From a virus (lineage: Duplodnaviria > Caudoviricetes), in IMG/VR virus record IMGVR_UViG_3300024344_003081: a DNA stretch of 64,000 nucleotides; one strand, 5' to 3'. Below are positions 12,654-64,000 of this stretch, one piece after another (position 1 is the first letter of the stretch; each line of letters begins with the position of its first letter). Below the pieces are notes generated by a model. The model had not been told where the DNA came from, made no database searches, and saw nothing but the letters and a program-made list of their open reading frames with translations. The translations under genes and the position numbers were made by a program.

Positions 12654-14084
12654 ATGATTGATAAAGATCCTGAAAATCTTCCCTCATCTACTTTTTGTGC
12701 ATTACCGTGGATGCACATTTCTACTCGCCCCAATGGACATATGCGTGTATGTTGTACTGCAAATGCATCCGCAGTACAAGATAAAGATTCAACAAATAAA
12801 ACAATTTCAGAAGCAGGTGTTCTTAGGAGAGATGATGGAAAGCCTGCCAATTTAGCAACAACAAGTTTACTAGATGCATGGAATAATGAATATATGAAAT
12901 CCGTGCGAAAGATGATGCTTAGAGGTGAACGTCCTGCATCTTGTCTAAAATGTTTTAAGGAGGAAGATGCTGGACATAGATCAAAACGACAATGGGAAAC
13001 AGCAAAATGGGTTAACGAAATTGGACTTGAAGAAATTATTGATGAAACCACAGTTGAAGGAGCCGTTCCACCTAAAGTACGGTATATTGATCTTCGGCTT
13101 GGTAGTAAGTGTCAGCTTGCATGTGTTATGTGTAGTCCTCATGATTCATCTAAGTGGGTAAAAGAGTATAAAGAAATATATCCAGAAATAAAAAATCCTA
13201 GATTAAAAGATTCGCAATTATGGGAAAAGGAATCTGGAAAATTAGCTTGGTCTGGTGGATCATATGCTTGGCATAAATCAAATCCCAATTTCTGGGAAGA
13301 ATTTTATACTCAAGTGCCAACTCTTAAACAATTATATTGGGCTGGCGGTGAATCATTAATTATGAAAGAACATTATGAAGTTCTTGAAAAAATTATTGAG
13401 ATGGGTTATGCTAAAGATATTGAAGTTAGATATAATTCGAATGGACTTGAATGGGATTCTAATTTGTTTGATCTTTGGAAAGAATATAAGAATGTTATTT
13501 TTCATTTTAGTGTAGATTCATATAAAGAAAAAAATCATTTCATTAGATATCCTTCTCGTTGGAAAAGAATTGTAAAACAAATGCATGTGTTAGATGATTA
13601 TCCTCATGGTAATCTTAGATTGACAACAGCAACTACAATTACTGCTCTCAATATTTTTTATCTTCCAGAATTTATAAGTTGGAAATTAGAAGAAGATTGG
13701 AAATTACTTAATAAATTTCCTGCTGGTGCTGGTATGATTGATTTGCATCTTGCATATTGGCCCCCCCAATTAAATTGTAAGGTATTACCTAAATGGTTTA
13801 AACGAGATGTAACTGATAAATTCGAAGAGTTTTATCCATGGCTTGAAGAGAATTGGAAAAAATGTAATGGAGTTGAGGTCGAAAATATCGACTTCAAAGA
13901 GTGGAGAGAATTGCCGTATGGTATAAAAAGACTTGAGGGCCTTGTGTCTTTTATGAACTCTGAAGATTGGTCTGAAAGATTGCCCGAAACTGCTGAATGG
14001 TGTTTTACTATTGCAAAGACAAGAAACTTAGATTTTATAAAAATATTTCCTGATTTAGAATGGCTGGAGTGGTATGCAAATTGA
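12654..14084 (+). CDS. Radical SAM protein with N-terminal twitch/SPASM domain
   Basis: CALPW...VCC...CLKC; CQLACVMC; AGGE; YNSNG. Confidence 0.92.
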   Translation: MIDKDPENLPSSTFCALPWMHISTRPNGHMRVCCTANASAVQDKDSTNKTISEAGVLRRDDGKPANLATTSLLDAWNNEYMKSVRKMMLRGERPASCLKCFKEEDAGHRSKRQWETAKWVNEIGLEEIIDETTVEGAVPPKVRYIDLRLGSKCQLACVMCSPHDSSKWVKEYKEIYPEIKNPRLKDSQLWEKESGKLAWSGGSYAWHKSNPNFWEEFYTQVPTLKQLYWAGGESLIMKEHYEVLEKIIEMGYAKDIEVRYNSNGLEWDSNLFDLWKEYKNVIFHFSVDSYKEKNHFIRYPSRWKRIVKQMHVLDDYPHGNLRLTTATTITALNIFYLPEFISWKLEEDWKLLNKFPAGAGMIDLHLAYWPPQLNCKVLPKWFKRDVTDKFEEFYPWLEENWKKCNGVEVENIDFKEWRELPYGIKRLEGLVSFMNSEDWSERLPETAEWCFTIAKTRNLDFIKIFPDLEWLEWYAN

Positions 14085-14826
14085 AATTCCCAAAACAATA
14101 CGTAGATTGAAACAAAAATTCATTGAAGAACTTTATTCAAAATATGAGGGCGAAGATGTTTGGAAAAATCTAAGACATTATAAAGACAAATGTTATGAAG
14201 AAAAGTTTGTAAATACTATAGGTATTTGGATGTCGGGTGGAGCAGATAGTTCAATGTTAGCATATTTACTTGCTAAAAAAATTAAAGAAGAAAATTTAAA
14301 TATAAAAATTCAACCTTTGTCTGTTAGAAGAGGAAGACCTAATAATCCAATATATGCTGGAAATGTTATAGATTGGATTGAAGAAGAATTAAATATTAAA
14401 ATGAATGATCATATCATATATTTTCCAGATATTACAGATAAGCATCAACGAGAAATAAAAGAATTTTGGGATAGAGATGATGAAAATTTTAGAAATGATT
14501 TATTTCAAATTCTTTATTCTGGAATAACGTGTAATCCTCCTGTTAATGATAAAACTATTCCTTTAAATAAAGAACGTAGTAGAGATGAAAATGCGGATAG
14601 ACCTTTAATATCAGAAAATGGAATTCGTTATTATTTAAATCCTTTTTTTGATATAAACAAAAAACAATTAGCAGAATTATATAAAGAAAATAATTTATTA
14701 AATACTCTTTTTTCTCAAACTTATAGTTGTGAGGGAGAGGCCGAAGACACTAAAACACATACTCAGCATTGTGAAAAATGTTGGTGGTGTCAAGAAAGAT
14801 TTTGGGCGTTTGGAAGATATGTATAA
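14074..14826 (+). CDS. QueC-like PP-loop ATPase
   Basis: SGGADS PP-loop; TYSC...HCEKCWWCQER Zn-binding motif. Confidence 0.7.
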   Translation: MQIEIPKTIRRLKQKFIEELYSKYEGEDVWKNLRHYKDKCYEEKFVNTIGIWMSGGADSSMLAYLLAKKIKEENLNIKIQPLSVRRGRPNNPIYAGNVIDWIEEELNIKMNDHIIYFPDITDKHQREIKEFWDRDDENFRNDLFQILYSGITCNPPVNDKTIPLNKERSRDENADRPLISENGIRYYLNPFFDINKKQLAELYKENNLLNTLFSQTYSCEGEAEDTKTHTQHCEKCWWCQERFWAFGRYV

Positions 14827-15955
14827 TATTGAAGATCAATCAAATCGATATCAAATAATATGGGATCTTGGAAGAAGATGTTCATATGCATGTTCCTATT
14901 GTCCGCCTCATAGAAATAATAAAACATCCTCGTTTGTAAATTATAAAACATTATGTAAGTCTATGGATAATGTTGCAGAATATGCGTTGCTTTATGATAC
15001 ATTTAGAAAAAAACCTGCTAAGAAAAAATTGAGCTTTACTGGTGGTGAACCAACAGTACACCCTGATTTTTTTAGATTTTTAAAATATGTAAAAAAAGAA
15101 TATCCTGATTTTAGTCGAGGATTGACAACTAATGGATGGTTTGGTAATAATATTTTAGATAAAGTTTTATCATTGACTACGGGAGGAACATTATCTTATC
15201 ATTGTGAAGCAACAAAGAAACAAAAACAACAAGTAATATCAAATGCAATATATTTAAGACAAAAATATAAAGTTAATGTGATGTTTCATAAAGATTATTT
15301 TGAAGAATGTATAGATGTATGTGAAAAATTAGAAAAAAATAGTGTAGATTATGTACCAAGAATTATAGGAGATGATAATCCTAACGATAAAAAGTCTATA
15401 ATATTGGGTTATACACATAAGTATAATAAAGATCAAATGAAATGGTTTCGTAACTATTGGAAACAAAGGGGACAAAATGTCTCAGAAAAAGGAAACACTC
15501 AAAAAGGACTGGGAAGACCGTGTTGTGGAGGAAGGTGTTTCAAGGCAGACGGTGTGGATACTTATTTTTTGCCTGACACTAATTTTTTGGGGTGGAATTG
15601 CATGGTTAATTGGTACTTTCTTTTTTTAAATTCTGAATTAGATGCAGTTTATACACATCAAACTTGTGGAGTTAATTTAAATGGTGAAGTTGCTCCTTTA
15701 GGAAAAATATCAGAGTTTGATAAAATCATAGATGACTTAGCAGATAATATGTATCAAAAAAAGGTACCTATGATTACTTGCCCAAAAACTTTTTGTGGAT
15801 GCGGTATGTGCATTACAAAATCTAAAGACTCTATAGATGAAATGTTTAATCGACACGTAATTGATGAGTTAAATTATGAAAAAGTATCTCAAAAAACAAG
15901 TGATTGGAATACAGATTTAACAGTTAAAAAATTATTTGAAAATAATGTGTTATGA
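14819..15955 (+). CDS. Radical SAM protein
   Basis: WDLGRRCSYACSYC, TGGEPTVHP, TTNG; ATG 14819. Confidence 0.9.
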   Translation: MYNIEDQSNRYQIIWDLGRRCSYACSYCPPHRNNKTSSFVNYKTLCKSMDNVAEYALLYDTFRKKPAKKKLSFTGGEPTVHPDFFRFLKYVKKEYPDFSRGLTTNGWFGNNILDKVLSLTTGGTLSYHCEATKKQKQQVISNAIYLRQKYKVNVMFHKDYFEECIDVCEKLEKNSVDYVPRIIGDDNPNDKKSIILGYTHKYNKDQMKWFRNYWKQRGQNVSEKGNTQKGLGRPCCGGRCFKADGVDTYFLPDTNFLGWNCMVNWYFLFLNSELDAVYTHQTCGVNLNGEVAPLGKISEFDKIIDDLADNMYQKKVPMITCPKTFCGCGMCITKSKDSIDEMFNRHVIDELNYEKVSQKTSDWNTDLTVKKLFENNVL

Positions 15956-17040
15956 AACATTTTTGCATGGCTCCTTTTGTACACATTCAAAGAAATTCTT
16001 TTGGTGAATTTAATCCTTGTTGTATGTTTAGTGATAGAATTTATTCTGAATATAATTCTATATACGAAGCATTCAATAGTGGAGAGAATAATAATCTTAG
16101 ACAAAGAATGTTAAATGATGAAAAAATAGAAGGATGTAATAAATGTTATAGAGATGAGTCTTTGGGAAAACACAGTTATAGACAACGTTTTAATGAAAGA
16201 TATAAACAAGAATATATTGATAATCCAAAAATAAAAGAATTAGAATTAGCATTAAGTAATAAATGTAATTATAAATGTGTAGACTGTAATACGAAATTTA
16301 GTTCTTCTTGGTATGAAGATGATCTGTTATTAGAAAGAACTCACTATACTTTTAAAGGACGAGATGTAAAAAATACAATTCATGAAGAAGATTTTAAAAT
16401 CATGGATTTGAATGAAATAAAAATTTTAGGGGGCGAGCCATTTTTAGATAAAAGATATATTGATGTTTTTAAAAAAATAGATGCTGAAAATATTAAGTTG
16501 TTTCTTGTTACAAATAATTCTGTTTTCCCTAATAAAGAATGGATAGAACAATTAAAAAGATTTAAACATATTAATTTTAATATTAGTATTGATGGTGTTC
16601 ATGAAGTTGCAGAATTTGTAAGATATGGAACTAAATTTATAAAATTTGAAAAAAATTATAAAAAATGGTTGGATTTAAATTTTCATAATATAGACATAAT
16701 TCCTCATTTTGTTTTTCATTCTTTAAATGTTTTAAACTTTGATCAGACGATAGATTGGTTAATTGATGTTTATGATTCAGATATAGAAACAATATTAAAT
16801 TATATTTCCTATGATTTTTTATCAATGCCTGAAATGTTAAATTGTTCATTTTTAACGGATGAATGTAAAAATATGATTGTTGATAATAGTGTTTATTTTA
16901 AAAATGAATTAGAAAATTTTCTTGAAAGCAATTCATATAATTCGACATATATTGATGAATTGAAAAAATTTGTTTCTTTTTTGAATTTAAGAAGTGAAAT
17001 ACCCAATCAATCTTTTCAAGTTATATCATGTTTAAAATAA
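15952..17040 (+). CDS. Radical SAM protein with N-terminal twitch/SPASM domain
   Basis: CMAPF..PCC..CNKC; CNYKCVDC; GGEPF; SIDG. Confidence 0.9.
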   Translation: MKHFCMAPFVHIQRNSFGEFNPCCMFSDRIYSEYNSIYEAFNSGENNNLRQRMLNDEKIEGCNKCYRDESLGKHSYRQRFNERYKQEYIDNPKIKELELALSNKCNYKCVDCNTKFSSSWYEDDLLLERTHYTFKGRDVKNTIHEEDFKIMDLNEIKILGGEPFLDKRYIDVFKKIDAENIKLFLVTNNSVFPNKEWIEQLKRFKHINFNISIDGVHEVAEFVRYGTKFIKFEKNYKKWLDLNFHNIDIIPHFVFHSLNVLNFDQTIDWLIDVYDSDIETILNYISYDFLSMPEMLNCSFLTDECKNMIVDNSVYFKNELENFLESNSYNSTYIDELKKFVSFLNLRSEIPNQSFQVISCLK

Positions 17041-18014: not shown

Positions 18015-18930
18015 AACAGTAGAATGGATCGATGTTGAATTAACATCATTTTGTAATATAGCATGTCCTGGTTGTTTGAGACAAGAAAAAAGAAAACAAG
18101 TAGATCATATTTTAGATAAAGATATGATACAATTTTCTGATTTGCAAAAATGGATCAAAAAAGAAGATTTCCCTAATTTAAAATTGCTTAATTTTTGTGG
18201 ATCTGTAGATGAGCCCACAACACATCCTGAATTATTAGATATAGTAGAATATTTTTTAACATTTACAGAGATAAATATTGCATCCAATGGATCGACTAAG
18301 ACAAAAGATTTTTGGAAAAAATTAGGAGAATATGGTGTATCTGTATTTTTTGGTATTGATGGTATAGATCAGAAATCGTTAGAGAAATATAGAATAGGTT
18401 CTAGTTTTAAAAAAATACAGGAAAATTATAGAGCATTTATTAAAGCGGGGGGTAATGCTACTTGGCAATTTATAGTATTTGAACATAATGAACATCTTTT
18501 GGAAGATGCAAAAGCTCTTTCAGAAAAAGAAGGATTTACAAATTTTAGAACAATATTTTCTCATAGAAAAGGAAGTGGAGAGATTGAAAAAAAGACAGTT
18601 GAAGAACAAGAGATATATTGTAAGTATGGACATCAAAAAAGACTTTTTATAAATCATACAGGAGCTTTGATACCATGTTGTTATTTAAACTCTGAAGCAC
18701 TTGAATTACATGCTAATGAAACTATTAAAACTAAATTTGGGACAAAATATATGGAATTAGATGGAGTGTTATCAAATAATCTTAAATATAATACAGTATC
18801 GGAAGTATTGAATGGAGAATTATTTAAATATATTATTGAATCTTGGAATGATGATCCAGTTGAAAAGTGTTGGCAAACATGTAAACAGAAAAAAAGAGAT
18901 ATTTTTATAGATGAGAAAGTAACATGCTGA
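18001..18930 (+). CDS. Radical SAM protein with C-terminal SPASM
   Basis: CNIACPGC, CGSVDEP, SNGS, PCC...CWQTC; ATG 18001. Confidence 0.9.
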   Translation: MWKTKTVEWIDVELTSFCNIACPGCLRQEKRKQVDHILDKDMIQFSDLQKWIKKEDFPNLKLLNFCGSVDEPTTHPELLDIVEYFLTFTEINIASNGSTKTKDFWKKLGEYGVSVFFGIDGIDQKSLEKYRIGSSFKKIQENYRAFIKAGGNATWQFIVFEHNEHLLEDAKALSEKEGFTNFRTIFSHRKGSGEIEKKTVEEQEIYCKYGHQKRLFINHTGALIPCCYLNSEALELHANETIKTKFGTKYMELDGVLSNNLKYNTVSEVLNGELFKYIIESWNDDPVEKCWQTCKQKKRDIFIDEKVTC

Positions 18931-20270
18931 CTTGTTTTTACGCCCTTGGTGGAATTAATTATAAAAATGGAGTTATAACAACTTGTCCAAGACAAGCAAA
19001 TCAATTAGTATTTGCTCATGAAACAATATTGCCCTCAGAAATATTTAATCATAAAAATTTTAAAGAACTTAGAAAATCATTATATCAAAATAAATGGCCT
19101 AGTGGATGTGATACATGTGAGAATATGGAACAGGTAGGAGCAAAGTCTATGAGAAAAGATTATGTTTTAAATTCTGATAATTTTTTTCATAAGCCACAAA
19201 AAGACGATTATTCGGACGGAGATCCACAAAAAAATAAATTAAAAGATGAAAAAACAGAAATAAGATTATATGATTGTTATAATCCTATAACACATGAAGT
19301 AAATAGAAAAGGATTGCGACATGTTGAGTTTAGATTTAGTACGGCTTGTAATTTTTCTTGTTTACATTGTTCAAAAGTTTATTCCTCGGGATGGACTAAA
19401 AAATTACGTAATTATGAACCCGATCAAGAAGTTATACTAAATGATTTAAGACAATTGTTAGGAACAGAACATAGACATGGCCCAAATGATAGAAATGAAA
19501 TGTCTTTATCTATTGAAGAATCTTTAAAAATTGTAGAAGACCTGAATGAAAATTTTCCATTATTACAATATGTGGATTTTGCAGGAGGAGAATTACTATA
19601 TCAAAAGCAATTTTTTCCCACATTGAAAAAATTAGCAGATCATCCTAATGCAAAAAATATAAAAATATCTTTTCATACAAATTTTAATGCTGATTTTGAT
19701 GTTGCACTTTTGTCTAAACATCTGGAATGTTTTGGCTCTTCAGCAATAATAATATCTGTTGATGCGGGTAAAACATTTTATTCTTATTTTAGAAATGGGG
19801 GTGAATGGGACAAATTGAAAAATAATATTCAAGAATTTAAAAAAATAAATGATTTTACTTGGGTTGATATGAGTTGTACAACTTCAATTTATCAAATGTT
19901 GGATATATATGATGTTTTTGATTCGTTTTATGATTTGAATTTAAACTTTGATGCATCTATAGTTCAAACTCCACAATATTTGGATCCGTCATTAATACTT
20001 TATGATTTTTATGATGAGACTATGAAAGATATTGAAAAAACATATGAGTTAATTGAAAAAAGACAAAAAAATCCTGAAGGAAAAAGTGATTATTCAAAAT
20101 ATTGGTTTAATTATATTGTGGATTATGTAAAGCAAACGAAAATAAGTTATAATAATTTTAATAGATTTTTAATATATCGAAAAAAATCAGATGAGATTTG
20201 GAATCAAGATTTTAATGATTATTTTGAAAATTATCAAATCGAAAATAATGAATTAGTGAGAGTTAAGTGA
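18924..20270 (+). CDS. Radical SAM protein with N-terminal twitch/SPASM domain
   Basis: CFY..C..CDTC; CNFSCLHC; AGGE; HTN. Confidence 0.9.
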   Translation: MLTCFYALGGINYKNGVITTCPRQANQLVFAHETILPSEIFNHKNFKELRKSLYQNKWPSGCDTCENMEQVGAKSMRKDYVLNSDNFFHKPQKDDYSDGDPQKNKLKDEKTEIRLYDCYNPITHEVNRKGLRHVEFRFSTACNFSCLHCSKVYSSGWTKKLRNYEPDQEVILNDLRQLLGTEHRHGPNDRNEMSLSIEESLKIVEDLNENFPLLQYVDFAGGELLYQKQFFPTLKKLADHPNAKNIKISFHTNFNADFDVALLSKHLECFGSSAIIISVDAGKTFYSYFRNGGEWDKLKNNIQEFKKINDFTWVDMSCTTSIYQMLDIYDVFDSFYDLNLNFDASIVQTPQYLDPSLILYDFYDETMKDIEKTYELIEKRQKNPEGKSDYSKYWFNYIVDYVKQTKISYNNFNRFLIYRKKSDEIWNQDFNDYFENYQIENNELVRVK

Positions 20271-21334
20271 AATTAAGTGAATATGATTTTACCAAGATAC
20301 CTTGGAATAAAATTGAACGAGTTGGGACTTGGAAGATGCTGGAGTCTGACTTATTTACAGTTTCATGGTTGTTAGGGAGATTTTGTAATTATAGATGTTC
20401 ATATTGCTGGCCATATGCAAGAAGTAATACTAAAGATCATCGTCCTGTGAAATTATGTCTCAATACAATTGATGAAATTAAACGACAAGCCAGAGAAAGA
20501 AATTTTAATTCCTTTCATTTTAGTCTATCTGGAGGTGAGCCCACTTTTCATCCAGCATATCTTGATATACTTGAACATCTTGCAGATGATGTAGTATACA
20601 CTAATTATTCATCTGTCCATATGACTTCAAATTGTTCTCGACCTATGAAGTGGTTTGAACGATATGTTGAGTCAGCAAAGAAATTTTCAAGAGCATCTAT
20701 TACTGCATCATTTCATCGTGAATATATTACAAAAAATAAACTTAATGATTTTGCAGATAAACTTGATTTTTGTCAACGTAATGGTGTAAGAGTAACAATT
20801 AATTCTGTAATGGTACCAGAAAAATTTGATGAAATATATAAAGACTTATTGTATTTTTATGAACGAGGCATAAACGTAACACTTAAACCACAAAGTGATC
20901 CTACTGCATCATTTGTTGTTGATGGATATTCTGAAGAACAGATGCAAGTATTGCATAATGGTATGCCTCAGATTACAAACATGGAAGTTAAATCAAAAAA
21001 ACTTCAAAACATTCGTCAAGAATTTGAAATTGTTATGAATGATGATGAAGGAAAAGAGTGGTATCTTGATCAAGCAGAAAGATTTAATGCATTTAATTTT
21101 AATAATTTTAAAGGATGGACTTGCTCTACTGGTTATCGTAGTTGCATTATTCGTGAACCTGATGGAAGCATTAAACGATCTTATTCTTGTGGAGATGCTC
21201 CTTTAGGAAATATAGAAACAGGATTTAAATTATTTGATTCGCCTGTGATATGTACTACAAATGCGTGTGTAAGTTCTGCTGATAGTAAAATTCCTAAAAA
21301 GAAATCTAATTGTACCTTACCATTATGGAAATAG
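20267..21334 (+). CDS. Radical SAM protein
   Basis: WLLGRFCNYRCSYC, SGGEPTFHP; GTG start overlapping the previous stop. Confidence 0.9.
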   Translation: MKLSEYDFTKIPWNKIERVGTWKMLESDLFTVSWLLGRFCNYRCSYCWPYARSNTKDHRPVKLCLNTIDEIKRQARERNFNSFHFSLSGGEPTFHPAYLDILEHLADDVVYTNYSSVHMTSNCSRPMKWFERYVESAKKFSRASITASFHREYITKNKLNDFADKLDFCQRNGVRVTINSVMVPEKFDEIYKDLLYFYERGINVTLKPQSDPTASFVVDGYSEEQMQVLHNGMPQITNMEVKSKKLQNIRQEFEIVMNDDEGKEWYLDQAERFNAFNFNNFKGWTCSTGYRSCIIREPDGSIKRSYSCGDAPLGNIETGFKLFDSPVICTTNACVSSADSKIPKKKSNCTLPLWK

Positions 21335-21534
21335 ATAATATTATAAATGATTATTCTTTGAGAGAATTACAAATTATTTCTTCAAGAATATTATCAGAAC
21401 ATGAAGCTACAAATAATTTTATAAAACAATTTAAAGCAGATCATGATAGTCATCAATTTTATAAAAACGTTATTAAATGGTATATTGAAAAATATAAACA
21501 TTTTCCTGAATTGAAAAAATATGATTCCTTCTAA
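21325..21534 (+). CDS. Small hypothetical protein
   Basis: ORF fills the gap between two radical SAM genes, overlapping both; ATG 21325. Confidence 0.55.
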   Translation: MEIDNIINDYSLRELQIISSRILSEHEATNNFIKQFKADHDSHQFYKNVIKWYIEKYKHFPELKKYDSF

Positions 21535-23050
21535 AGATAATACTTTTTGTTTTTATCCTTTTTATGCCATGGTTTTTAAACTATGGAAAAAGAATAGTAA
21601 TGAATTAAGAGCAGTTGCACCATGTTGTATGATGCATGACACTAAAGATATAACAGGAATTAAAATAGATGTTTCATATACTGCTACAAATCCTGTGGTT
21701 ATTACAAGTATAAATCATGAATTAATTGATGATGATAAAATAGAAATTTATGAAGTAAATGGAGATGGAGTTGATGTGGGGCCATATACAGTAACAGTAC
21801 TTTCTTCAGATACATTTTCTATTCCTGAAGATGCTACAAAGGGCAATGTTGGTAAATTGAATTATCATATGAGAGAACCGAATTCAATTTTAACTAGAAG
21901 AGATTTAAAAGGATTGTCTCCTCATGATATTTTTCATCATAAAAAATTTGAAGAATTAAGAAAAAACTTACTTAATAATGTGCGGGATTCTCGTTGTTCC
22001 ACATGTTGGAATCAGGAAGATTTGGGAATAATGTCTCATAGAATGTATACACGATGGCAATTTCCAGAAAAATTTAAAACAAGTTTAAAAGAAATAGACA
22101 TATCAATATCTAATAAGTGTAATTTAGCATGTAGAATGTGTAATACAGGATCTTCACATCAACTAAATGAAGATGTGAATAAATTAAGAAAAAATAATAA
22201 ATTGCTTTTATTTGAAGAAGTTTCAGATAATGGTTTAGGATCACTTAATTTACCATTGGATGTTAAAAATAATCATTTAATACAATGGATATATCACAAT
22301 ACTGATAAAATAAAAATTTTAAAAGCATCTGGAGGAGAGCCACTATATGATAGAAATATATTAAATTTGTTAAGAAAATATGTGAAAGATGGTAATAGTA
22401 AATCAACAGAATTACAATTCCATACAAATGCAATGTTAATAACAGATAAAATTATTAAACTCATGGACGAATTTAAATTACAAAGACATTCATTTAGTAT
22501 AGATGGAGTTGATAAGACTTATAATTACATAAGACATAAAGCAAATTTTTCGATTTTAGAAAAAAATATTAAAAATTGGTTTAACAAATCTAATAACATT
22601 TATGCAGTAAATATTAATTTAGTATTGTCTGCGTTAAATATAGGTAATGTTGTTGAGTTTTTGGAATGGACAGCTTTGATGTTTCATGATAAGATTAGAT
22701 GTAATGTTTTTATTTCTGAAGTGCGGCCTCATGGTAGAGGACTCGATATTGCAAATTTACCAATCTCTTATTTAGAAAAAATACGAAAAGATATTATAGA
22801 ATATAGAGATGGTTTTGAAACATTTAGAACTAAAATATATAATTATATGCATAAAGGAAATTTTTTCCATTATGAAATTGATAAATTATTATCGTTAATT
22901 GATCATGCAATAACAAATAATGTATGTGATATTTTTCGTTTATATACTGAAATAACATTATTAGATGAAACAAGAAATCAAAGTTATAAAAATTTTTTAG
23001 ATTCTTCTTTAGTTTCTATTTTAGAAAACTATGAATCGCAAGAAAAATAA
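21521..23050 (+). CDS. Radical SAM protein with N-terminal twitch domain interrupted by a virion-type beta module
   Basis: CFYPF..PCC..[insert]..CSTC; CNLACRMC; SGGEP; HTN; SIDG. Confidence 0.9.
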   Translation: MIPSKDNTFCFYPFYAMVFKLWKKNSNELRAVAPCCMMHDTKDITGIKIDVSYTATNPVVITSINHELIDDDKIEIYEVNGDGVDVGPYTVTVLSSDTFSIPEDATKGNVGKLNYHMREPNSILTRRDLKGLSPHDIFHHKKFEELRKNLLNNVRDSRCSTCWNQEDLGIMSHRMYTRWQFPEKFKTSLKEIDISISNKCNLACRMCNTGSSHQLNEDVNKLRKNNKLLLFEEVSDNGLGSLNLPLDVKNNHLIQWIYHNTDKIKILKASGGEPLYDRNILNLLRKYVKDGNSKSTELQFHTNAMLITDKIIKLMDEFKLQRHSFSIDGVDKTYNYIRHKANFSILEKNIKNWFNKSNNIYAVNINLVLSALNIGNVVEFLEWTALMFHDKIRCNVFISEVRPHGRGLDIANLPISYLEKIRKDIIEYRDGFETFRTKIYNYMHKGNFFHYEIDKLLSLIDHAITNNVCDIFRLYTEITLLDETRNQSYKNFLDSSLVSILENYESQEK

Positions 23051-51613: not shown

Positions 51614-51780
51614 GTAAAAAAGAAGAAGAAATTATTTTAGAACAAAAACCAATAGTTAATGGTAATATGACAGAAGTTTTAGAAAAGGTTTTAAATTTCA
51701 ATAATGATTATTTAAAATTTTTAAAAAGTGAATTGGAAACTGCTAAAAAAATACAATTAGAAGAAAGAAATAATGGCTGA
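51610..51780 (+). CDS. Small hypothetical protein (56 aa, absent from ORF track)
   Basis: MSKKEEEIILEQKP...EERNNG; ATGA overlap with gp5 stop, overlaps next start. Confidence 0.55.
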   Translation: MSKKEEEIILEQKPIVNGNMTEVLEKVLNFNNDYLKFLKSELETAKKIQLEERNNG

Positions 51781-54700: not shown

Positions 54701-55123
54701 AGAAGTGTAGATTTTTCTCCAAGGATTCAAATGAATAGTGTTTCACTTACAAATTCTGAAGATAATTCTATTTCTACAAAAAATGATTCAATTATATTAT
54801 TTCAAGGAACATATAACGAAGAAGAGTCGGTAGGTAATAAATTTTCTCAAGATGCTTCTTTTCATCAATTTGTAACACGGCCCAAAACACGTATTGTAGG
54901 AAAGGGCAATGCTGATAAAGATGGAAAGTTTGAAAAACAATATTTTAATGTGGATCTTAAACCTAAAAACCCATTAAAAAGATGCACCGACAAGAATAAA
55001 TATAAAATTTTAATTCAATCAAGTATAGTGAATCAAGAAGGTCAATCATTAAAAGAAAGATATAAACTTAATATTGGATTTTCTATAAATCCTGTAACAG
55101 TAGATTTTGGAGGATTTGTTTAA
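51773..55123 (+). CDS. Large virion structural protein, helical segments plus C-terminal Ig-like domain
   Basis: Position in baseplate operon; C-terminal IVF...P...L...Y.I.I...I....G..L pattern. Confidence 0.6.
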   Translation: MAEEEVSKDDVILKQMEGVAFGGSTADALNLFLSGLQTFGNNFAVICDTLIQFFQATKLFLESFANPLTASLIATIDSLIEALEELNALGFGSVTVWPWAHGTYPQQLNTEKLDEAMLGLVAAMQGVDIGDIRFSERGFFVQTKNGETLLTPGQEIAAGGTRESFQTKDTIYDTLTGIRNFFHPELWTGTTTPFWLDSPSDAAKRRAAFTQRGGSGPHQDTDPASLEQHWSGQAADWSKDKLLSAIQTTQKNLLVRELTPNQAVKKIIQSLSGNTPDDNRPTGGGPYKAYVLMFALPTINDVVQVVQQFADYFGSVIGDPLVKKLAAPGSGTFDERIKTIQLGEPLHKPGVWDRPDEQSEFYYNEADFKVRKVADKTYKLGGEIPMFRPGDRIVQTGGILGNHTASAEVVQHLPIIVKNGMIIQNRVRVKSVRGEFIGTSHKPLNTASTPLVKSILTGPPNPNNDPIFRSDTLEKPIERIDGTFFGTIKEGETVITEIIPNDTIGQLIRTTCQNLSVSQGSGGAFKAGMKSLLEGGGSKRIIDSYMTFLKSIKKGMVIKHQFLQPMDMSNKAFDFYHGSAWTDTEFKFNYGQLLDVIPSLDVQYHIANIKIGGMAIESTNNLTEESLFAYVDGDNKPIMADLTFEIGFLNYDGSYDTDFLNIDIGGIITVPNTGYGGVHSWQTTIPTTNDRFGPPNQPFETISGNKNISPNWNYIRISDLFPAYGQVVKDAIGSVKKFKKQVEEIAKAIDEYIRFLERQIKAIQRLNDQVQQLIAFFTKGLNMAGIYTAQFGGDGIGDFKKKLKNMKMLQTNKNNLNEITLETVETDTEIEDPFTGLKKTVKRKILKPVTKKATGEEPDGIPKPLSELDNLKYSGAIVFLGQGPDLEKFDTFMNNFNGLATLGKGFLSNLFSKESIIAQRIIPYVHDIQGENVNGDFESIEGLGSIDEEATIRIVFTNDANLLDNTERELVNGQVERSVDFSPRIQMNSVSLTNSEDNSISTKNDSIILFQGTYNEEESVGNKFSQDASFHQFVTRPKTRIVGKGNADKDGKFEKQYFNVDLKPKNPLKRCTDKNKYKILIQSSIVNQEGQSLKERYKLNIGFSINPVTVDFGGFV

Positions 55124-58100
55124 TGGCAAACAATTCAATTTCTAGAACAGGAACATTTACATCTAGCGGAAGTGCTGGGGGTTCGGGAACATATCATTAT
55201 AATCATGGTGAATATTGGAGTAGTTCTGGATCATCTGGTTATTCTGGCACAGATTATTATTCTAATGATGATTTAAATAACGGTTCTATTTTTGTTAATA
55301 TTGATAGTCAAATATCTATAACATTTACACAAGAAGTTGATAATAGTTCTATAACTACTTTCAACAAAGATAAGTTATTGCCTCTAGATTCTCAAAACAA
55401 AAAAGGAACTGTTGGATTGACACATATTGTTTCTACGACTCAGGGAGCAACAGATGATGGAAATAATTTAAAAGCCTTAAAATTAACTTCTCTACCTATA
55501 GATTTAACAACTAATGATCATGAAGCTGTTGCTGATCAAGAATTTGTAGAAATGGCTTCTTCTCCTTCTACAGTAGATAATCAAACTTATATTTTTACAC
55601 CAAAAGCAAATCTTTCTTCAAATACAACTTATTTTTTAAGAATGGATCCTACAAATGTATTAGATGCTACTGGTTCAGAAATTAGTTATTTTACTGAAAA
55701 AGGATTTGTTACTGATAATACGCAAAGTTTTGTGACTACAGGAGATTATTATGATGGATTTAAAATGCAAATTGAAAAGGTTAATTTATATTTAGAAGAA
55801 ACAGAACCTAATGCTGATGGTGTAACTGATCCTCAACCAGATTCTTTGACTTTATATCGAGATGATGGAAAAAGCGGAACAGTTTCTTTAGCAACTACTT
55901 TAAATATTCAATCTATAGAAGGAACAGTATTAAAATATCAATTAGATCCTACTTCATATAAAATGAATGTTGCTTATACTGCTACTAATCCTATAGTAAT
56001 TACAAGTATAAATCATGGATTAGCAGATGATGACAAAATAGAAGTTTATGATGTAGTAAGTGGGGTTTCAATTAAAGAAGGTGCATATACATTAACAGAA
56101 ATTACTTCAGATACATTTTCTATTCCTGTTGATGGTACAGGAAGTACTGCTGGTAGATTAAATTATTATAGAAATGCAAATAAAAATGATTTATTTAAAT
56201 GGAGCGAAAGCAAGGATGAAGGACCAACAACAACAAATTATGTTGTAAGAAAAAAAGCATTGTCTGTTCCGAAAAAAAATGGAAAATCTATTGATGAGTT
56301 GTTAGATGTTAAGTTTAAAACTAAAGCAACAAGTGAGGGTTCAATAGGCGAACCAGCAACAGGTAGAGAAGGAAAAATAATAAAAATTGATGATGAGACT
56401 ATATCATTTGTTGCTATATCCGATACTGCTTCAGGTGGAAAAATTATATCTTCTACTTTTGTAAATAATTCTATAGTAGATATTTCAACTTCTAATAATG
56501 ATATTAGATTCCATATAAAAGCAAATACTTCTCCCGATCATAATGTACATCCTTTTCATTCTTCTGCGCCAAAAGTGATTTCTACCTTTCCTGAAGATGG
56601 TACATCTTTCCCGAGAAAATTGACAATTACTCAAATTTCAAGAAGTGGACATGAAGCCATTGTATCTACAAATCATCCTCATAATTTGTTTAAAGATGAT
56701 TATATACAAATTGTTGATTCTACTCAACTCATTTATAATAAAACAACAAAAGTATTGTCTGTTCCAACACCAAACACTTTTCGTTATGATATGGGTTCAC
56801 ATAGTAATTTTACAAATGTACAAAGTCCTGCTCCTGGAAAACCGAAACTTGAGATTAGTAATGATGATGGTACTACTTATGCAGAAAGATATAATGCTAT
56901 ATTCGTAAATTTTAATCAATCTATGAACACAAGTACTGTTACTGTTGCAAATAATACTCATTTAATTTCTGCAAATGGAACAAGTGCAACATTTTCTGGT
57001 GGGCAAGATTCTGCTTCAAGCACAATACATTTATCAGATGATGGATTTGAAACAATTGAAAATTGTGTTTCAGTAATAGCAAGTTCAGGTAATTCTGTTT
57101 TTGCAATTGTCCCTGAAGCTCTTCAAGCAAGACATGATTATAATATAAAAGTTAAAACAGATATTCAGGATTTGGGTCAAACAAATAGTCTTTATCAATT
57201 TACAACAACTGAAGGAATTACTACTGGACAGAAATTTATAGATCCACAGACTGGTCAAGAAACAATATATTCAAAAGACGAAGATCCTCCGAAAATTAAA
57301 AGAATAACTTTTCCAACAGCCGATGATGATCTTATTGTAGAAAGTGCTAATATAGCTGAAATAACTGCCCATTCAGATTTTTATCATACAGCAATGCCCC
57401 TCAGTACGTTAATGACTTATGGTGTTAAGATTCAATTTTCTGAAAGTATGAAAATAAATTCAGTAACTACTGCAACATCTAATACAGATCCTACAGGCAC
57501 AGTATTGCTGTCTGCCGATGATTTTAGTACAGTTGTTCAAATGGCTACAGATCCAGTTGTAACAACAACTGATGAAGAGAATGATACTTTTACTGTTAAA
57601 CCTATAGCAAATGTATCTGCAAATGCTGTTTATACTTTAAAAGTTTTAAAAGATGTTACTGATGATTCACCAGAAGAAAATCGAATGGAACAAGATAATG
57701 TGATGTCAATAAAAGTTCTTACAGTAAATTCGATTCCTGGAAGTGCTGTGAATTATTATTCTGCAGGAGAAATTATATCAGGAGTTAGAACATTAACGAT
57801 TAAAGCAAATACAGGAACACCAACTATAGGAGTAACTGCTGGATCTACGTTTTTAGGTTTAACATCAAAAGGTAAAGGGAAAGTTTTAGATTTTACTGAA
57901 GATTCGGGAGCAATAACATCTATTAGATATACGGAATTATCTGGTCAAGATGGATCTATTAGACCTTTACGTCCTGGTGAAATTTGTAAAGTAAGTGATA
58001 CTGTTAATTTTACAATTGATAATGTTGCAATAACTGATCCTCCAGAAGGAAATGTTATCTCTTTTACTACAGGAACAAGAAAATTAATTTATAGAGATAG

Positions 58101-59064
58101 GAGTGCAGATAATGAATTTGTATCTGCAAATTCAAGTGCAGAGAGAATTTTTGGTAGAGCATCAAATGGAGAAGTTTTTGCAAGTAGTTCTGGTAGTGAA
58201 GGTATAGTGGGACCAGGAATTAAAACTGCTACAACTGGACTTGTAGCAAATGTGTTTTTTAGTGATGGTTCAAGTTTAGTGTCTCCTATAGATGGAAATC
58301 TAACTGGTATTGATGAAAGATCAAATCTTACTGTTAAGTTTACTCAAACAATGAATGTTGAAAGTATTAATTTTAATGCAGTTGATTCAATAGTAAGAGA
58401 TCCTTATAATATATTGCTTTCTTATGATAGTAATTTTGGTAATACAATACCACTGAGTACGAATTTTACAAGTTCAAATAATGATACTGTATTTGAATTC
58501 CAACCAGCAATATTGTCAAATACAAGTTTACAATTAACACAAGATAAGAATCTTTATGCTAAGGTAACACAGACAGCAAAAAATCTGGGTGATATGAATT
58601 TGGCAAGTGTTTTTGCTCCTTCAAATTATGCTAATACTGTTACAAATGTTGATTTTAAAGCAATAGATGCTTCTGTTTTTACTACAGATGGAGAAGAAAT
58701 AAAATTAGGAACAGGAACTTCTATTTCTATGCCTAATCAATCTTCAATAATAGCAAGATCAACTCTTGTTATTATTCATTTTAACGAGGTTCCTGATCTG
58801 GCAGATTTTGACATGGCTGGGTCGGGATATGAAATAGAATTATCAACTGTCAGTAATTTTGCTTCAGGTTTTTATTCAGGTACAGCAACTTTAACAAAAC
58901 AAGGCAAATATGGAACAGAAATACATATTAGACTTTCTGTAGGATTAACGGCATCAACTCAGCATTATTTAAGAGTTGTGGGTAGTGTAGGCGGAAGTAG
59001 TGAAGGCGGAAAAGCAATTGATACAACTACCCAATATTTCAATTCATTTACAACTTCATCATAA
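55123..59064 (+). CDS. Large virion protein with about five SbsA/Big_5-type Ig-like repeats and two FCCH-like beta modules
   Basis: Repeats I.F.(Q/E).(M/V)...S..T and P..L.....Y.L.V; TNP.VITS..HGL..DD.I module. Confidence 0.75.
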   Translation: MANNSISRTGTFTSSGSAGGSGTYHYNHGEYWSSSGSSGYSGTDYYSNDDLNNGSIFVNIDSQISITFTQEVDNSSITTFNKDKLLPLDSQNKKGTVGLTHIVSTTQGATDDGNNLKALKLTSLPIDLTTNDHEAVADQEFVEMASSPSTVDNQTYIFTPKANLSSNTTYFLRMDPTNVLDATGSEISYFTEKGFVTDNTQSFVTTGDYYDGFKMQIEKVNLYLEETEPNADGVTDPQPDSLTLYRDDGKSGTVSLATTLNIQSIEGTVLKYQLDPTSYKMNVAYTATNPIVITSINHGLADDDKIEVYDVVSGVSIKEGAYTLTEITSDTFSIPVDGTGSTAGRLNYYRNANKNDLFKWSESKDEGPTTTNYVVRKKALSVPKKNGKSIDELLDVKFKTKATSEGSIGEPATGREGKIIKIDDETISFVAISDTASGGKIISSTFVNNSIVDISTSNNDIRFHIKANTSPDHNVHPFHSSAPKVISTFPEDGTSFPRKLTITQISRSGHEAIVSTNHPHNLFKDDYIQIVDSTQLIYNKTTKVLSVPTPNTFRYDMGSHSNFTNVQSPAPGKPKLEISNDDGTTYAERYNAIFVNFNQSMNTSTVTVANNTHLISANGTSATFSGGQDSASSTIHLSDDGFETIENCVSVIASSGNSVFAIVPEALQARHDYNIKVKTDIQDLGQTNSLYQFTTTEGITTGQKFIDPQTGQETIYSKDEDPPKIKRITFPTADDDLIVESANIAEITAHSDFYHTAMPLSTLMTYGVKIQFSESMKINSVTTATSNTDPTGTVLLSADDFSTVVQMATDPVVTTTDEENDTFTVKPIANVSANAVYTLKVLKDVTDDSPEENRMEQDNVMSIKVLTVNSIPGSAVNYYSAGEIISGVRTLTIKANTGTPTIGVTAGSTFLGLTSKGKGKVLDFTEDSGAITSIRYTELSGQDGSIRPLRPGEICKVSDTVNFTIDNVAITDPPEGNVISFTTGTRKLIYRDRSADNEFVSANSSAERIFGRASNGEVFASSSGSEGIVGPGIKTATTGLVANVFFSDGSSLVSPIDGNLTGIDERSNLTVKFTQTMNVESINFNAVDSIVRDPYNILLSYDSNFGNTIPLSTNFTSSNNDTVFEFQPAILSNTSLQLTQDKNLYAKVTQTAKNLGDMNLASVFAPSNYANTVTNVDFKAIDASVFTTDGEEIKLGTGTSISMPNQSSIIARSTLVIIHFNEVPDLADFDMAGSGYEIELSTVSNFASGFYSGTATLTKQGKYGTEIHIRLSVGLTASTQHYLRVVGSVGGSSEGGKAIDTTTQYFNSFTTSS

Positions 59065-61714: not shown

Positions 61715-64000
61715 ATGTCAGAATATAATTGGTTAAAAGATACAGAAAATACGAAATTAGTAAGTAAGATATCTAATTTAGTTGAGAATCAATTTCCAGA
61801 ATTTGTTAAAAATGAAGGAACGAATTTTGTTGAATTTTTAAAATTTTACTACAAATGGATGGAATCACATGAATTAACTATTAAAGATGTGGTTCAAGAT
61901 GAATATCATATTAGATTAGAAAGTGAACAGGGCGGTTTTGTTTTAGAAACTGGATCGGATTTTATTTTAGAAGGCGATAGAACTAATAATAGTGCTTATG
62001 AAAAAAATGAAATTATAACAGGAATGACTTCAGGTGCAACTGGTACTGTTGATAGAAACACAAATACTGCATCGAGTAAAATTTATGTAACAGGAGTAAC
62101 GAAAACAGATTTCGAAGTAGGTGAAATAATTAAAGGCACAAATAATCGTACACTTGGTACTGTAACTAGCTTTCAGAAAAATCCTCTTTTTGCATCGAGA
62201 ACATTATTAAAATCAAAAGATATTGATAGCACTACAACAACTATGATGGATTATTTTGCTAAAGAATTTTTGATAAATTTTCCATTAAATTTAAGTACAG
62301 ACAAACCACTTTTAATAAAACATATATCTGATATTTACAGATCAAAGGGAACAAGTACTTCATATGATTTTTTATTTAAATCATTATATGATATACAAAA
62401 TCTTACTTTTTATACCCCAAAACTAGATTTACTTAAACCTTCTACTGGTAATTGGCAACAAGACAAATCTATCAGAATTATTACAGATGATCCTGCGACA
62501 TCATTTGAAAGTCATTCTGTTACAGGAAAACAATCAGGAGCAACTGGAATTGTAAATCGTATTGAAGAATTTGCGGCTGGAGTTTTTGATATAACAGAAT
62601 TATTTTTAACAAATATTGAAGGAACATTTATTGTAGGAGAATCGGTAGACTCAAATGAAGTTGATGGAGTATCTGGTAGTGGAATAGCACAAGGATTAAT
62701 ATCTGAAATTCTTATTTCCACTGCGGGTTCTGATTATAAAATAAATGATAAACTTTCATTTTCTGGTGGGGGAGGTGTTGAAGCAAAAGCAAAAGTAACA
62801 GATATTGGATCTGGTGCATTAGCTAAATTTACTATATTCGATGGTGGAGATGGATATCTTGAAGATAAAGAATTAACAGTAAATAATTTTGCTACGTTGG
62901 GAACTGGATTTGCTGGAAAAATTAAAGATGTAATTGATACTTTTACATTTTCAAAAAATGAAGATATAATAGGAAATTATACTTCAGTTACATTGGATGC
63001 TCTTGCATATGAATTGAGTGGAGATGTATCAGCGGATGTCGATAGTAGATTAATTGATGCATTAGGTTTTTCAAAATTAGATGCAGGACACATTTCTAGT
63101 GTAGAAACTACTGGTACTGGTGCTGGTTATGAGGCTATTCCTAAAATATCAGTTTCAGAATCAACAACTGAAGATTTTAATGAAAATTCTGTTCAAATTT
63201 TGAATTTAAATCCAGATCCTGATGATCTTGGTACAACTAATGCGATTACAGATTTTTTTGATCCTGGTGAAAAAATAACTTCTAATAGTGGTAATAAAAT
63301 AGGAACATTTTTTGGTACTGTATCGACAACATATGATCACTTAGATCCTTCCAGAATAAGAGTAAAAACTATAAAATTTTTAGATCAAAATGTAACTGAA
63401 AAAATTCCAATTGCACAAAGAAACGATTTGCTTGTAAATAATTCTTCTTATTTAGCAACTTCAAATCCATCAGTATATCATGTACAATTCGTTACTGGTG
63501 GTTCGGGTTCAGTAAATACTATAAAATATAAACGAGGAATTGATGCAAGAGAAGATTTTAATAGTGCAAATAATACTGGAAATATAGATTTTTATCCAAC
63601 ATCAGGTGGAGTAGATGTAACAGGTGGTTATCAAACATTAAGTTTTGGTATTACATCAATTACTAGATCAAGCACAATTGCAACTGCAACCACATATGGA
63701 AAACATGGATTAGAAGATGGGCAAATAGTTGCTATATCAGGAGCAAGTCCTGCTGGTTACAATGGAACTGCAACAATTACGGTAGCAAGTACAACTTCTT
63801 TTTCATATACCGTAGGGGGTTCCCTTACAACTCCTGCTACAGGAACTATAACTTATAATGAAAATGTTTCTGTAAAATTTACATTACCTTTTGGACATAC
63901 TACTGATGATGAATATGCTTTTTCTACTATTGATTTTGTTTCTAATGAAGTTCTTACTGGCGCTAATTCTGCCGCAGTTGCAACTGTAAACACTGGTGTT
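61715..64000 (+). CDS. gp7: Baseplate wedge initiator, truncated by window end (absent from ORF track)
   Basis: ISNLVENQFPEFV...FVEFLKFYY, IK.I...Y.SKGT..S..FLF...Y; FCCH-like module at 63650-63856. Confidence 0.85.
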   Translation, partial: MSEYNWLKDTENTKLVSKISNLVENQFPEFVKNEGTNFVEFLKFYYKWMESHELTIKDVVQDEYHIRLESEQGGFVLETGSDFILEGDRTNNSAYEKNEIITGMTSGATGTVDRNTNTASSKIYVTGVTKTDFEVGEIIKGTNNRTLGTVTSFQKNPLFASRTLLKSKDIDSTTTTMMDYFAKEFLINFPLNLSTDKPLLIKHISDIYRSKGTSTSYDFLFKSLYDIQNLTFYTPKLDLLKPSTGNWQQDKSIRIITDDPATSFESHSVTGKQSGATGIVNRIEEFAAGVFDITELFLTNIEGTFIVGESVDSNEVDGVSGSGIAQGLISEILISTAGSDYKINDKLSFSGGGGVEAKAKVTDIGSGALAKFTIFDGGDGYLEDKELTVNNFATLGTGFAGKIKDVIDTFTFSKNEDIIGNYTSVTLDALAYELSGDVSADVDSRLIDALGFSKLDAGHISSVETTGTGAGYEAIPKISVSESTTEDFNENSVQILNLNPDPDDLGTTNAITDFFDPGEKITSNSGNKIGTFFGTVSTTYDHLDPSRIRVKTIKFLDQNVTEKIPIAQRNDLLVNNSSYLATSNPSVYHVQFVTGGSGSVNTIKYKRGIDAREDFNSANNTGNIDFYPTSGGVDVTGGYQTLSFGITSITRSSTIATATTYGKHGLEDGQIVAISGASPAGYNGTATITVASTTSFSYTVGGSLTTPATGTITYNENVSVKFTLPFGHTTDDEYAFSTIDFVSNEVLTGANSAAVATVNTGV

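What the first reader, a model, noticed from the sequence alone, without database searches (positions are those of the whole stretch)
21662..21868. Virion-protein module copied into a radical SAM enzyme
Seen: the radical SAM at 21521-23050 has a ~65-aa insert in its twitch-domain loop (VSYTATNPVVITSINHELIDDDKIEIYEV...YTVTVLSSDTFSIPEDATKGNVGKLNY). It aligns at 41/66 aa with 55969-56166 of the 1313-aa structural protein (VAYTATNPIVITSINHGLADDDKIEVYDV...YTLTEITSDTFSIPVDGTGSTAGRLNY). Identical DNA blocks remain (ATTACAAGTATAAATCATG, TTCAGATACATTTTCTATTCCTG). The four twitch-type paralogs in the window lack it. Knowledge: this HGL..G/D module (FCCH-like) recurs in phage tail and baseplate proteins. 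Inference: an in-frame intragenomic domain transfer that may dock the enzyme on virion parts or mimic its substrate, physically linking the enzyme cluster to the tail.
Basis: partly seen in the sequence, partly recalled or inferred. Interest (0 to 1): 0.9.

Follow-up and report, generated by a model that had tools for sequence, protein, structure and literature searches.

The report
Baseplate-protein domain copied into a phage enzyme
One lineage of an uncultured marine T4-like phage copied a small beta-barrel domain from a baseplate-region protein, in frame, into a surface loop of one of its radical SAM enzymes; the event is real and inherited, but the insert evolves about as fast as neutral sequence, so a role in docking to the virion is not shown.

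Summary
Residues 47-118 of the radical SAM protein (nt 21659-21874) match residues 279-351 of the 1313-aa protein at 55123-59064. Identity is 44/75 aa (BLASTP E 1e-22), 41/66 in the core and about 80% in DNA, and both exact DNA blocks are present.

It is not an assembly artefact. Four contigs from four studies carry both junctions with no differences.

The module is conserved at the same position in all seven orthologs of the 1313-aa protein that cover this region. Among the radical SAM orthologs, only one clade carries it (bootstrap 99, three alleles, dozens of contigs). That points to a single gain, with the baseplate-protein family as donor.

The module belongs to the E1-FCCH / endosialidase beta-barrel family. 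AlphaFold2 predicts a confident six-strand domain between the second Cys and the CxxC of an intact N-terminal twitch domain.

The insert's dN/dS is about 1.2 (CI 0.68-2.6), against 0.33 for the rest of the enzyme. It has also gained or lost codons.

My reading is a tolerated accessory domain, possibly a weak binding module. Docking on the virion and substrate mimicry remain untested. The window's insert is no closer to its own genome's copy than to copies in other phages, so "intragenomic" is unproven.

The scan had already noted the same insert on another genome (e1-5349119).

The parts
21521..23050 (+). N-terminal-twitch radical SAM gene (509 aa) that hosts the insert
   Evidence: NF033640 N_Twi_rSAM scores 208.8 bits against a cut-off of 170, and Pfam Radical_SAM covers residues 194-382. 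AF2 mean pLDDT is 86.7, with twitch and core above 90. Foldseek matches CteB, SuiB, MoaA, BlsE and SkfB.
21659..21874 (+). Inserted segment, residues 47-118 (72 codons): one E1-FCCH / endosialidase-barrel-type beta domain
   Evidence: Absent from about 30 aligned orthologs of 66-77% identity. BLASTP to the 1313-aa protein gives E 1e-22. Family profile matches residues 51-113 with E 1.9e-27. AF2 with a module-containing alignment gives pLDDT 87-96 and six strands.
21548..21628 (+). Twitch-domain cysteines upstream of the insert (C10, C35, C36)
   Evidence: C35 is invariant and C10 and C36 are at least 90% conserved in 57 homologs.
21995..22006 (+). Twitch-domain CxxC downstream of the insert (C159, C162)
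   Evidence: Both are invariant in 57 homologs.
22118..22141 (+). Radical SAM CX3CX2C motif (C200, C204, C207)
   Evidence: Invariant in 57 homologs.
55123..59064 (+). 1313-aa protein of the baseplate gene block, the donor family of the module
   Evidence: Lies between the gp5-like hub (49577-51613) and the gp25-, gp6- and gp7-like wedge genes (59371-64000). Has Pfam Big_5 Ig-like domains. No PHROG or PDB sequence match.
55957..56175 (+). Donor-type module, residues 279-351 of the 1313-aa protein
   Evidence: Conserved at the same position in seven orthologs, L002-L007 and L009.
56623..56820 (+). Second, divergent FCCH-like module of the 1313-aa protein (about residues 501-566)
   Evidence: Family HMM E 6e-14. 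Also present in all orthologs.
63650..63832 (+). Weak FCCH-like module in the gp7-like baseplate wedge ORF (61715 onward)
   Evidence: Family HMM E 2.5e-4. The ORF matches phrog_17744, baseplate wedge subunit.
18924..20270 (+). Nearest in-window N-twitch paralog, without the insert
   Evidence: NF033640 scores 198.7 bits. Alignment shows a short loop at the site.

Best explanation
SHOWN
- A 216-nt segment encoding one six-stranded beta-barrel domain (E1-FCCH / endosialidase-barrel family) was copied once, in frame, into a radical SAM gene of a marine T4-like phage lineage. The source was the 1313-aa baseplate-block protein family.
- It landed in the loop between the second cysteine (C35/C36) and the CxxC (C159/C162) of the enzyme's N-terminal twitch domain.
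- All Fe-S cysteines and the radical SAM core are intact and under purifying selection, so the enzyme most likely still works.

PREDICTED
- The extra domain folds on its own, flanked by strands 42-53 and 111-120.

INFERRED
- The extra domain is not part of the catalytic machinery. It changes amino acids about 3.6 times faster than the rest of the protein and has gained and lost codons.
- I read it as a tolerated accessory domain in a permissive loop.
- If it does anything, the likeliest role is a low-stringency binding module. It would hold the enzyme near a polymeric ligand such as a glycan. The related barrel inserted into the catalytic domain of phage endosialidases binds polysialic acid in this way.
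For: Origin and direction:
- The module is present at the same place in all seven orthologs of the 1313-aa protein that cover this region.
- A search of 1.84 billion cluster representatives finds that family as the only close relative (62% identity). The next best hits are 49% identical or less over the aligned part and come from unrelated module families.
- Among the radical SAM orthologs, only P0001/P0003, P0266 and P0004/P0280 carry it.
- These carriers form one clade (bootstrap 99) on insert-free columns, nested among insert-less sequences.
- The inserts share a derived 1-codon deletion and the GPYT/VLSS states.

Not an artefact:
- About 20 runs from at least 6 studies hold at least 94% of the words sampled from the 601-bp stretch over both junctions.
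- Contigs from four of those studies, laid on the stretch, show 0 differences.
- P0280 is indexed in 56 blocks of the contig collection.

Fold:
- 26 of 36 family members match PF16190 and 12 of 36 match PF12195.
- The family profile hits the UBA1 FCCH domain, PDB 2lzj, at E 1e-7.
- AF2 gives pLDDT 87-96 over the insert.
- Short BFVD matches of 74-85 columns fall on phage tail or fibre proteins.

Enzyme intact:
- The Cys and GGE motifs are invariant.
- Twitch and core have pLDDT above 90.
- dN/dS of the non-insert part is 0.33, CI 0.23-0.47.

Relaxed insert:
- dN/dS is 1.20, CI 0.68-2.6. A +4-aa and a -1-aa indel occur among the alleles.

Permissive loop:
- P0009, L001 and L011 carry an unrelated insert of about 27 aa at the same site.

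Precedent:
- The endosialidase beta-barrel carries a sialic-acid binding site and is 'largely permissive' in deep mutational scanning (bioRxiv 10.1101/2025.10.06.680778).
Against: - All three sampled alleles of the clade retain the insert, and no secondary loss was seen.
- Fold-defining residues (NP..ITS..H.L, GPYT, DTFSIP) are kept.
- Within alleles there is no amino-acid polymorphism in the insert (0 sites, against 14 in the rest), despite 28 fixed A-B differences against 78 in the rest. Fisher p = 0.04. This hints at episodic or adaptive divergence followed by constraint, which would mean a real function rather than a passenger.
- Substitutions tend to avoid family-conserved columns, but not significantly (p 0.08 and 0.10).
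- dS is low and probably biased in this 29% GC genome. The same estimator gives 0.49 for the structural copies, so the absolute dN/dS values are inflated.
- No binding or activity data exist.
Confidence: 0.55

Rival explanations
1. The insert is a selected targeting module. It tethers the radical SAM enzyme either to the ligand that the baseplate protein's module binds (a glycan), or to virion or baseplate proteins during assembly. That would physically link the enzyme island to the tail. This is the first reader's idea, plus a variant in which the insert acts like a carbohydrate-binding module (CBM).
For: - The insert is retained in all three alleles of the clade across dS of about 0.2-0.35.
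- Fold residues are kept and the fold is predicted with confidence.
- There are zero within-allele amino-acid polymorphisms in the insert against an excess of fixed differences, p = 0.04.
- In the window the module otherwise occurs only in baseplate-block proteins.
- Elsewhere it occurs with adhesin-type partners: F5/8 type C, glycine-rich tail-fibre domains and tandem arrays in giant proteins.
- The homologous endosialidase barrel is a glycan-binding insert in an enzyme.
- FCCH domains face outward on siphophage tail tubes (PMC13576161).
Against: - dN/dS is about 1.2, and the CI includes 1.
- Indels occur inside the insert.
- About 30 aligned close orthologs in similar gene islands do without it.
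- The insert shows no special similarity to its own genome's copy.
- No interaction partner is known, and no test was run.
Confidence: 0.33
2. The insert mimics the enzyme's substrate. The enzyme would normally modify this domain in the 1313-aa protein, and the internal copy would act as a pseudo-substrate or is itself modified.
For: Only the sequence kinship of the insert and the structural module, and the presence of many modifying enzymes in the island.
Against: - Insert-less orthologs coexist with a conserved module in the structural protein.
- No residue is conserved specifically between the insert and the structural copies beyond the fold core.
- No precedent is known to me.
Confidence: 0.04
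3. The similarity is an assembly chimera, or the two genes acquired the module independently from a third source.
For: None for a chimera. For a third source: the insert clade lies outside all sampled structural copies on a long branch.
Against: - Identical junctions appear in contigs of four studies and in many independent assemblies.
- The best hit outside the 1313-aa family is 49% identical or less, against 62% for that family, among 1.84 billion representatives.
Confidence: 0.03

Closest known systems
Beta-barrel domain of phage endosialidases (Pfam PF12195; endoNF / K1F tailspike)
   Same: Same small beta-barrel superfamily: 12 of 36 module family members match PF12195. It is also a domain inserted within a catalytic domain of a phage-encoded enzyme. 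It carries a ligand (polysialic acid) site and tolerates mutation well.
   Different: The host there is a glycosidase that is itself a virion tailspike, and the barrel is an old, fixed part of the family. Here the host is a cytoplasmic-type radical SAM enzyme, and the insert is confined to one young clade. The window's own insert does not reach PF12195 by itself.
E1 ubiquitin-activating enzyme FCCH domain (Pfam PF16190; PDB 2lzj, 2v31)
   Same: The family profile hits it at E 1e-7, and 26 of 36 members match PF16190. It is a six-stranded barrel. In E1 it is likewise an inserted domain (my knowledge: Lee and Schindelin 2008, as cited in PMC13576161).
   Different: It is eukaryotic and contacts ubiquitin. 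The window's insert alone scores 19.5 bits, below the 29.5 gathering cut-off.
FCCH decoration domains of phage virion proteins (for example siphophage tail tube gp13/gp39)
   Same: Same domain, exposed on the outside of tail structures (PMC13576161). Solved 'structural protein' and 'tail protein gp15' chains also match the profile.
   Different: Those are terminal fusions to structural proteins, not insertions into an enzyme.
N-terminal-twitch radical SAM proteins (NCBIfam NF033640) without insert
   Same: The score is above the cut-off. The Cys pattern and core are identical, and about 30 orthologs and four in-window paralogs belong to the family.
   Different: None of them carries the 72-aa domain. 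One sublineage carries an unrelated insert of about 27 aa at the same loop. No member has a known substrate.
Shuffling of Ig-like / FN3 domains between phage virion proteins and carbohydrate-active enzymes (my knowledge: Fraser et al. 2006)
   Same: A small beta domain moves between virion proteins and enzymes.
   Different: The fold differs, and here donor and recipient families can both be identified within one phage group.

Membership tests
NCBIfam NF033640 N_Twi_rSAM (host enzyme) | Whole-protein HMM score above the curated cut-off | tested here: met
   208.8 bits against a cut-off of 170, E 1.4e-61.
NCBIfam NF033640 N_Twi_rSAM (host enzyme) | Radical SAM CX3CX2C motif and GGE SAM-binding motif | tested here: met
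   C200, C204, C207 and G271-G272-E273 are invariant in 57 homologs. Pfam PF04055 E 4.5e-12.
NCBIfam NF033640 N_Twi_rSAM (host enzyme) | N-terminal cysteines for an auxiliary (twitch) Fe-S cluster | tested here: met
   C10, C35, C36, C159 and C162 are present and conserved. Residues 1-40 and 120-170 have pLDDT of about 90 or more. Actual cluster binding cannot be tested with these tools.
Pfam PF16190 E1_FCCH / PF12195 End_beta_barrel (insert) | Score above the Pfam gathering threshold | tested here: not met
   The insert alone scores 19.5 bits against 29.5, E 0.001. Kinship rests on the profile: 26 of 36 relatives match PF16190, and the A3 profile hits PDB 2lzj at E 1e-7. I therefore call it FCCH-like, not a curated member.
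Pfam PF16190 E1_FCCH / PF12195 End_beta_barrel (insert) | Six-stranded closed beta-barrel | tested here: inconclusive
   AF2 predicts six strands (42-53, 59-62, 73-80, 87-90, 98-101, 111-120) at pLDDT 87-96. Local BFVD matches of 74-85 columns fall on tail or fibre proteins. I had no coordinates to check barrel closure or topology.
Carbohydrate-binding / docking module (function) | Binds a defined ligand or partner | not testable with these tools
   No ligand site is known for this subfamily, and no complex prediction was sent because no partner could be named.
Intein or other self-splicing / mobile insert | Cys/Ser/Thr at both splice junctions, HN motif, endonuclease | tested here: not met
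   The insert starts with Ile47 and is followed by Glu119. It shows no intein blocks and no match to any mobile-element family.

The most novel reading that the evidence does not exclude
The copied baseplate domain is a true targeting device. It would bring one enzyme of the ~48-kb 'chemical decoration' island to the assembling baseplate, or to the glycan that the baseplate protein recognises. The island's chemistry would then be applied to virion parts or to the receptor polymer. The rapid amino-acid divergence between alleles would reflect adaptive retuning of that binding surface.
Probability: 0.12. Interest if true: 0.8.

Novelty: new variant of a known kind. Interest (0 to 1): 0.42.

Why it matters
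This is a clean natural example of domain shuffling caught young. Donor family, recipient family, insertion site, single origin and later divergence can all be read from environmental sequence. It shows that a loop of the N-terminal twitch domain accepts whole domains; a second, unrelated insert sits at the same site. That is useful for engineering or tagging these uncharacterised enzymes. If the insert does bind something, it would be the first physical lead to the substrate of a very large, functionally unknown radical SAM island in marine T4-like phages. If it does not, it is an ordinary tolerated insertion.

Tried and rejected
- blastn and tblastn against 50,697 GenBank phage records found nothing.
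- No whole genome is held for the window.
- The IMG/VR record behind L001 lacks the 1313-aa gene, being a 23% complete fragment.
- Metagenome records behind L012-L017 could not be searched. I therefore could not compare the insert and the structural module within the A' and B genomes.
- A first combined alignment of orthologs plus module fragments (A4) misplaced all fragments and was discarded. A set that aligns correctly was found by trial.
- Model 1, built from orthologs only, left the insert at pLDDT 41-64.
- Testing whether A-B substitutions avoid family-conserved columns gave a trend only (p 0.08 and 0.10).
- Junction microhomology is uninformative: a possible shared TATAA at the left junction, too degraded to interpret.
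- The source of the other 27-aa insert was not found in any held DNA.
- PDB sequence and Atlas searches gave no identity for the 1313-aa protein.
- The intein or mobile-element reading was rejected (see the membership test).
- Complex prediction was not used. I do not claim a specific binding pair, and no partner could be named.
- The domain-only fold search could not be run, because fold search takes whole models.

Full report
**Observation**

The ORF at 21521-23050 encodes a 509-aa protein (P0001). It scores 208.8 bits against NCBIfam NF033640, 'twitch domain-containing radical SAM protein' (cut-off 170). The match only resumes at residue 127, at profile position 34. Pfam places the radical SAM core at residues 194-382.

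BLASTP against the 1313-aa ORF at 55123-59064 (P0002) gives one strong local match. It covers residues 43-116 against 275-349, with 44/75 identities and E 1e-22.

An HMM built from orthologs finds four further N-twitch paralogs in the window: 33-1223, 12654-14084, 15952-17040 and 18924-20270. The aligned 18924 paralog lacks the insert. A profile scan for the module finds it in none of the four.

**Exact limits and site**

Alignment with insert-less orthologs shows ...HDTKGITG|EYNSILT... becoming ...HDTKDITG|[72 aa]|EPNSILT.... The insert is therefore residues 47-118, nt 21659-21874.

It lies between C35/C36 and the C159-x-x-C162 pair of the N-terminal twitch domain. These cysteines, the CX3CX2C motif (C200, C204, C207) and the GGE motif are invariant or nearly so in 57 homologs.

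**Not an artefact**

- The same protein, or its allele, was called on many independently assembled contigs. P0001 is on 21 contigs, and P0280 is indexed in 56 blocks of the collection. Sources include ENA, JGI and NCBI assemblies made with different assemblers.
- About 20 public runs from at least six studies hold at least 94% of the words sampled from the 601-bp stretch spanning both junctions.
- Contigs from four studies cover that stretch in one piece with zero differences.

**Direction and number of events**

All seven orthologs of the 1313-aa protein that cover this region, fetched from IMG/VR (63-76% identical overall), carry the module at the same position.

A search of 1.84 billion cluster representatives with the insert alone found that family as the only close relative (62%). 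The other 140 or so hits are 49% identical or less over the aligned part, and most are tandem arrays in very large proteins.

Among the radical SAM orthologs at 66-77% identity that I aligned or placed on the tree, about 30 lack the insert. Only three alleles carry it:
- A: the window's protein, P0001/P0003.
- A': P0266, 512 aa, with four extra residues.
- B: P0004/P0280.

On a maximum-likelihood tree built from insert-free columns, the three alleles form one clade (bootstrap 99) nested among insert-less sequences. Their inserts share a derived one-codon deletion and other derived states relative to every structural copy. One gain, with the baseplate-block protein family as donor, is the parsimonious reading.

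On the module tree, the insert clade sits outside all sampled structural copies (bootstrap 100). The window's insert is no closer to its own genome's copy (62%) than to copies from other phages (59-65%). The transfer may have been intragenomic in an ancestor, but that is not shown, and there is no sign of continuing gene conversion.

**What the module is**

- Of 36 aligned family members, 26 match Pfam PF16190 (E1_FCCH) and 12 match PF12195 (endosialidase beta-barrel).
- The family profile hits the solved FCCH domain of UBA1 (2lzj) at E 1e-7. It also hits solved phage 'structural protein' and 'tail protein' chains.
- The window's insert alone reaches only 19.5 bits, against a gathering score of 29.5. 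'FCCH-like' is the honest label.
- In the window, the family HMM also finds a second divergent copy in the 1313-aa protein and a weak one in the gp7-like wedge ORF. It finds none in any other enzyme of the island.
- Ten other module-bearing proteins had only adhesin-type partners, or none.

**Structure**

With 57 homologs, AlphaFold2 gives mean pLDDT 86.7. The twitch region and core are above 90, and the insert is poorly defined. With an alignment that also places 33 module fragments correctly, the insert reaches pLDDT 87-96 as six strands. Strands 42-53 and 111-120 flank it.

The rest of the secondary structure is essentially unchanged between the two models. The prediction is therefore an intact twitch fold plus a separate beta domain.

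Foldseek places the enzyme with CteB, SuiB, MoaA, BlsE and SkfB. In BFVD it groups with many phage radical SAM proteins, and short 74-85-column matches fall on tail or fibre proteins.

**Evolutionary regime**

| Comparison (Nei-Gojobori) | dN/dS | 95% bootstrap CI |
|---|---|---|
| Insert, allele A vs B | 1.20 | 0.68-2.6 |
| Rest of the gene, A vs B | 0.33 | 0.23-0.47 |
| Module among structural orthologs | about 0.49 | not computed |

- The A-A' and A'-B comparisons agree with the A-B result.
- The insert has also gained four codons in A' and lost one in A' and B.
- These points argue that the insert is not part of the catalytic machinery and is weakly constrained.

Points on the other side:
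- All sampled members of the clade retain the insert.
- The fold-defining residues are kept.
- Substitutions tend to avoid family-conserved columns, though not significantly (p 0.08 and 0.10).
- Within alleles there are 0 polymorphic amino-acid sites in the insert against 14 elsewhere. Fixed A-B differences are 28 in the insert against 78 elsewhere (Fisher p = 0.04).

The last point is a weak, McDonald-Kreitman-like hint of past adaptive or episodic change. The polymorphisms may include assembly errors, so I give it little weight.

The gene is mosaic. The 3' third of L010 is identical to the window, while L012 differs there.

**Context**

The window is 29% GC and reads as a T4-like phage. It carries gp48-like, gp5-like, gp25-, gp6- and gp7-like genes.

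Upstream of these lies an island with eleven radical SAM genes, a cytidylyltransferase, an aminotransferase, a QueC-like gene, and methyl- and glycosyltransferase-like domains. This agrees with earlier notes of this scan.

The 1313-aa protein has Ig-like Big_5 domains. It has no PHROG, PDB or informative Atlas match. Its virion role is inferred from position only.

**Interpretation**

Shown:
- A single in-frame domain transfer from the baseplate-block protein family into a permissive loop of the twitch domain.
- Inheritance in one clade.
- An intact enzyme.
- A fast-evolving insert.

Inferred:
- The insert is an accessory domain, either a tolerated passenger or a low-stringency binding module.

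Two precedents fit the accessory reading. In phage endosialidases, the homologous barrel is an insert in the catalytic domain, holds a polysialic-acid site and is mutationally permissive. FCCH domains also decorate the outside of siphophage tail tubes.

Docking of the enzyme on virion parts is possible but untested. Substrate mimicry has no support.

A second, unrelated insert of about 27 aa at the same loop in another sublineage shows that the site is simply tolerant.

**Novelty**

I found no description of a virion-type beta-barrel inside a radical SAM enzyme. Domain insertion into enzyme loops is a known kind of event, so I class this as a new variant of a known kind, of moderate interest. 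The scan had already noted the same insert on another genome.

Noticed in passing
L011:10001-11395 and L001:5998-7395 (protein P0009): A different sublineage of the same radical SAM ortholog carries an unrelated insert of about 27 aa (ERKRFSLESSTNLSEECLQLETGEHFILT) at exactly the same loop.
   Followed up: partly
window 21310-21534; L012:9805-10014: A small ORF (74 aa here, 69 aa in L012) overlaps the start of the insert-bearing radical SAM gene. It is 97% identical between allele A and allele B contigs, so it is more conserved than the enzyme. It is absent upstream of allele A' (L016) and of the insert-less ortholog (L019). It could be a partner or a precursor peptide.
   Followed up: partly
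window 22721-23047 versus L010 and L012: The gene is a recombination mosaic. Codons 401-509 of the allele on L010 are identical to the window at the DNA level (dS 0), while the otherwise near-identical allele on L012 differs there. Allele A' (L016) joins an A-like first half of the insert to a B-like second half.
   Followed up: partly
window 33-25682: Eleven radical SAM genes lie in one co-oriented block, five with an N-terminal twitch domain. The block also holds a cytidylyltransferase (6231-6902), an aminotransferase (6853-7845), a QueC-like gene (14074-14826) and a MORN-repeat protein (1887-2741). No substrate is evident.
   Followed up: partly
window 51773-55123 and 55123-59064: Two very large ORFs (1116 and 1313 aa) sit between the gp5-like hub and the gp25-like wedge gene. 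Neither has a PHROG match. The second has Big_5 Ig-like domains and two FCCH-like modules.
   Followed up: partly
window 21521-23050: tblastn of this protein against 50,697 GenBank phage records found nothing at E 1e-5. Yet BFVD holds structurally similar radical SAM proteins from uncultured Caudovirales and from Vibrio phages KVP40 and phi-pp2.
   Followed up: no
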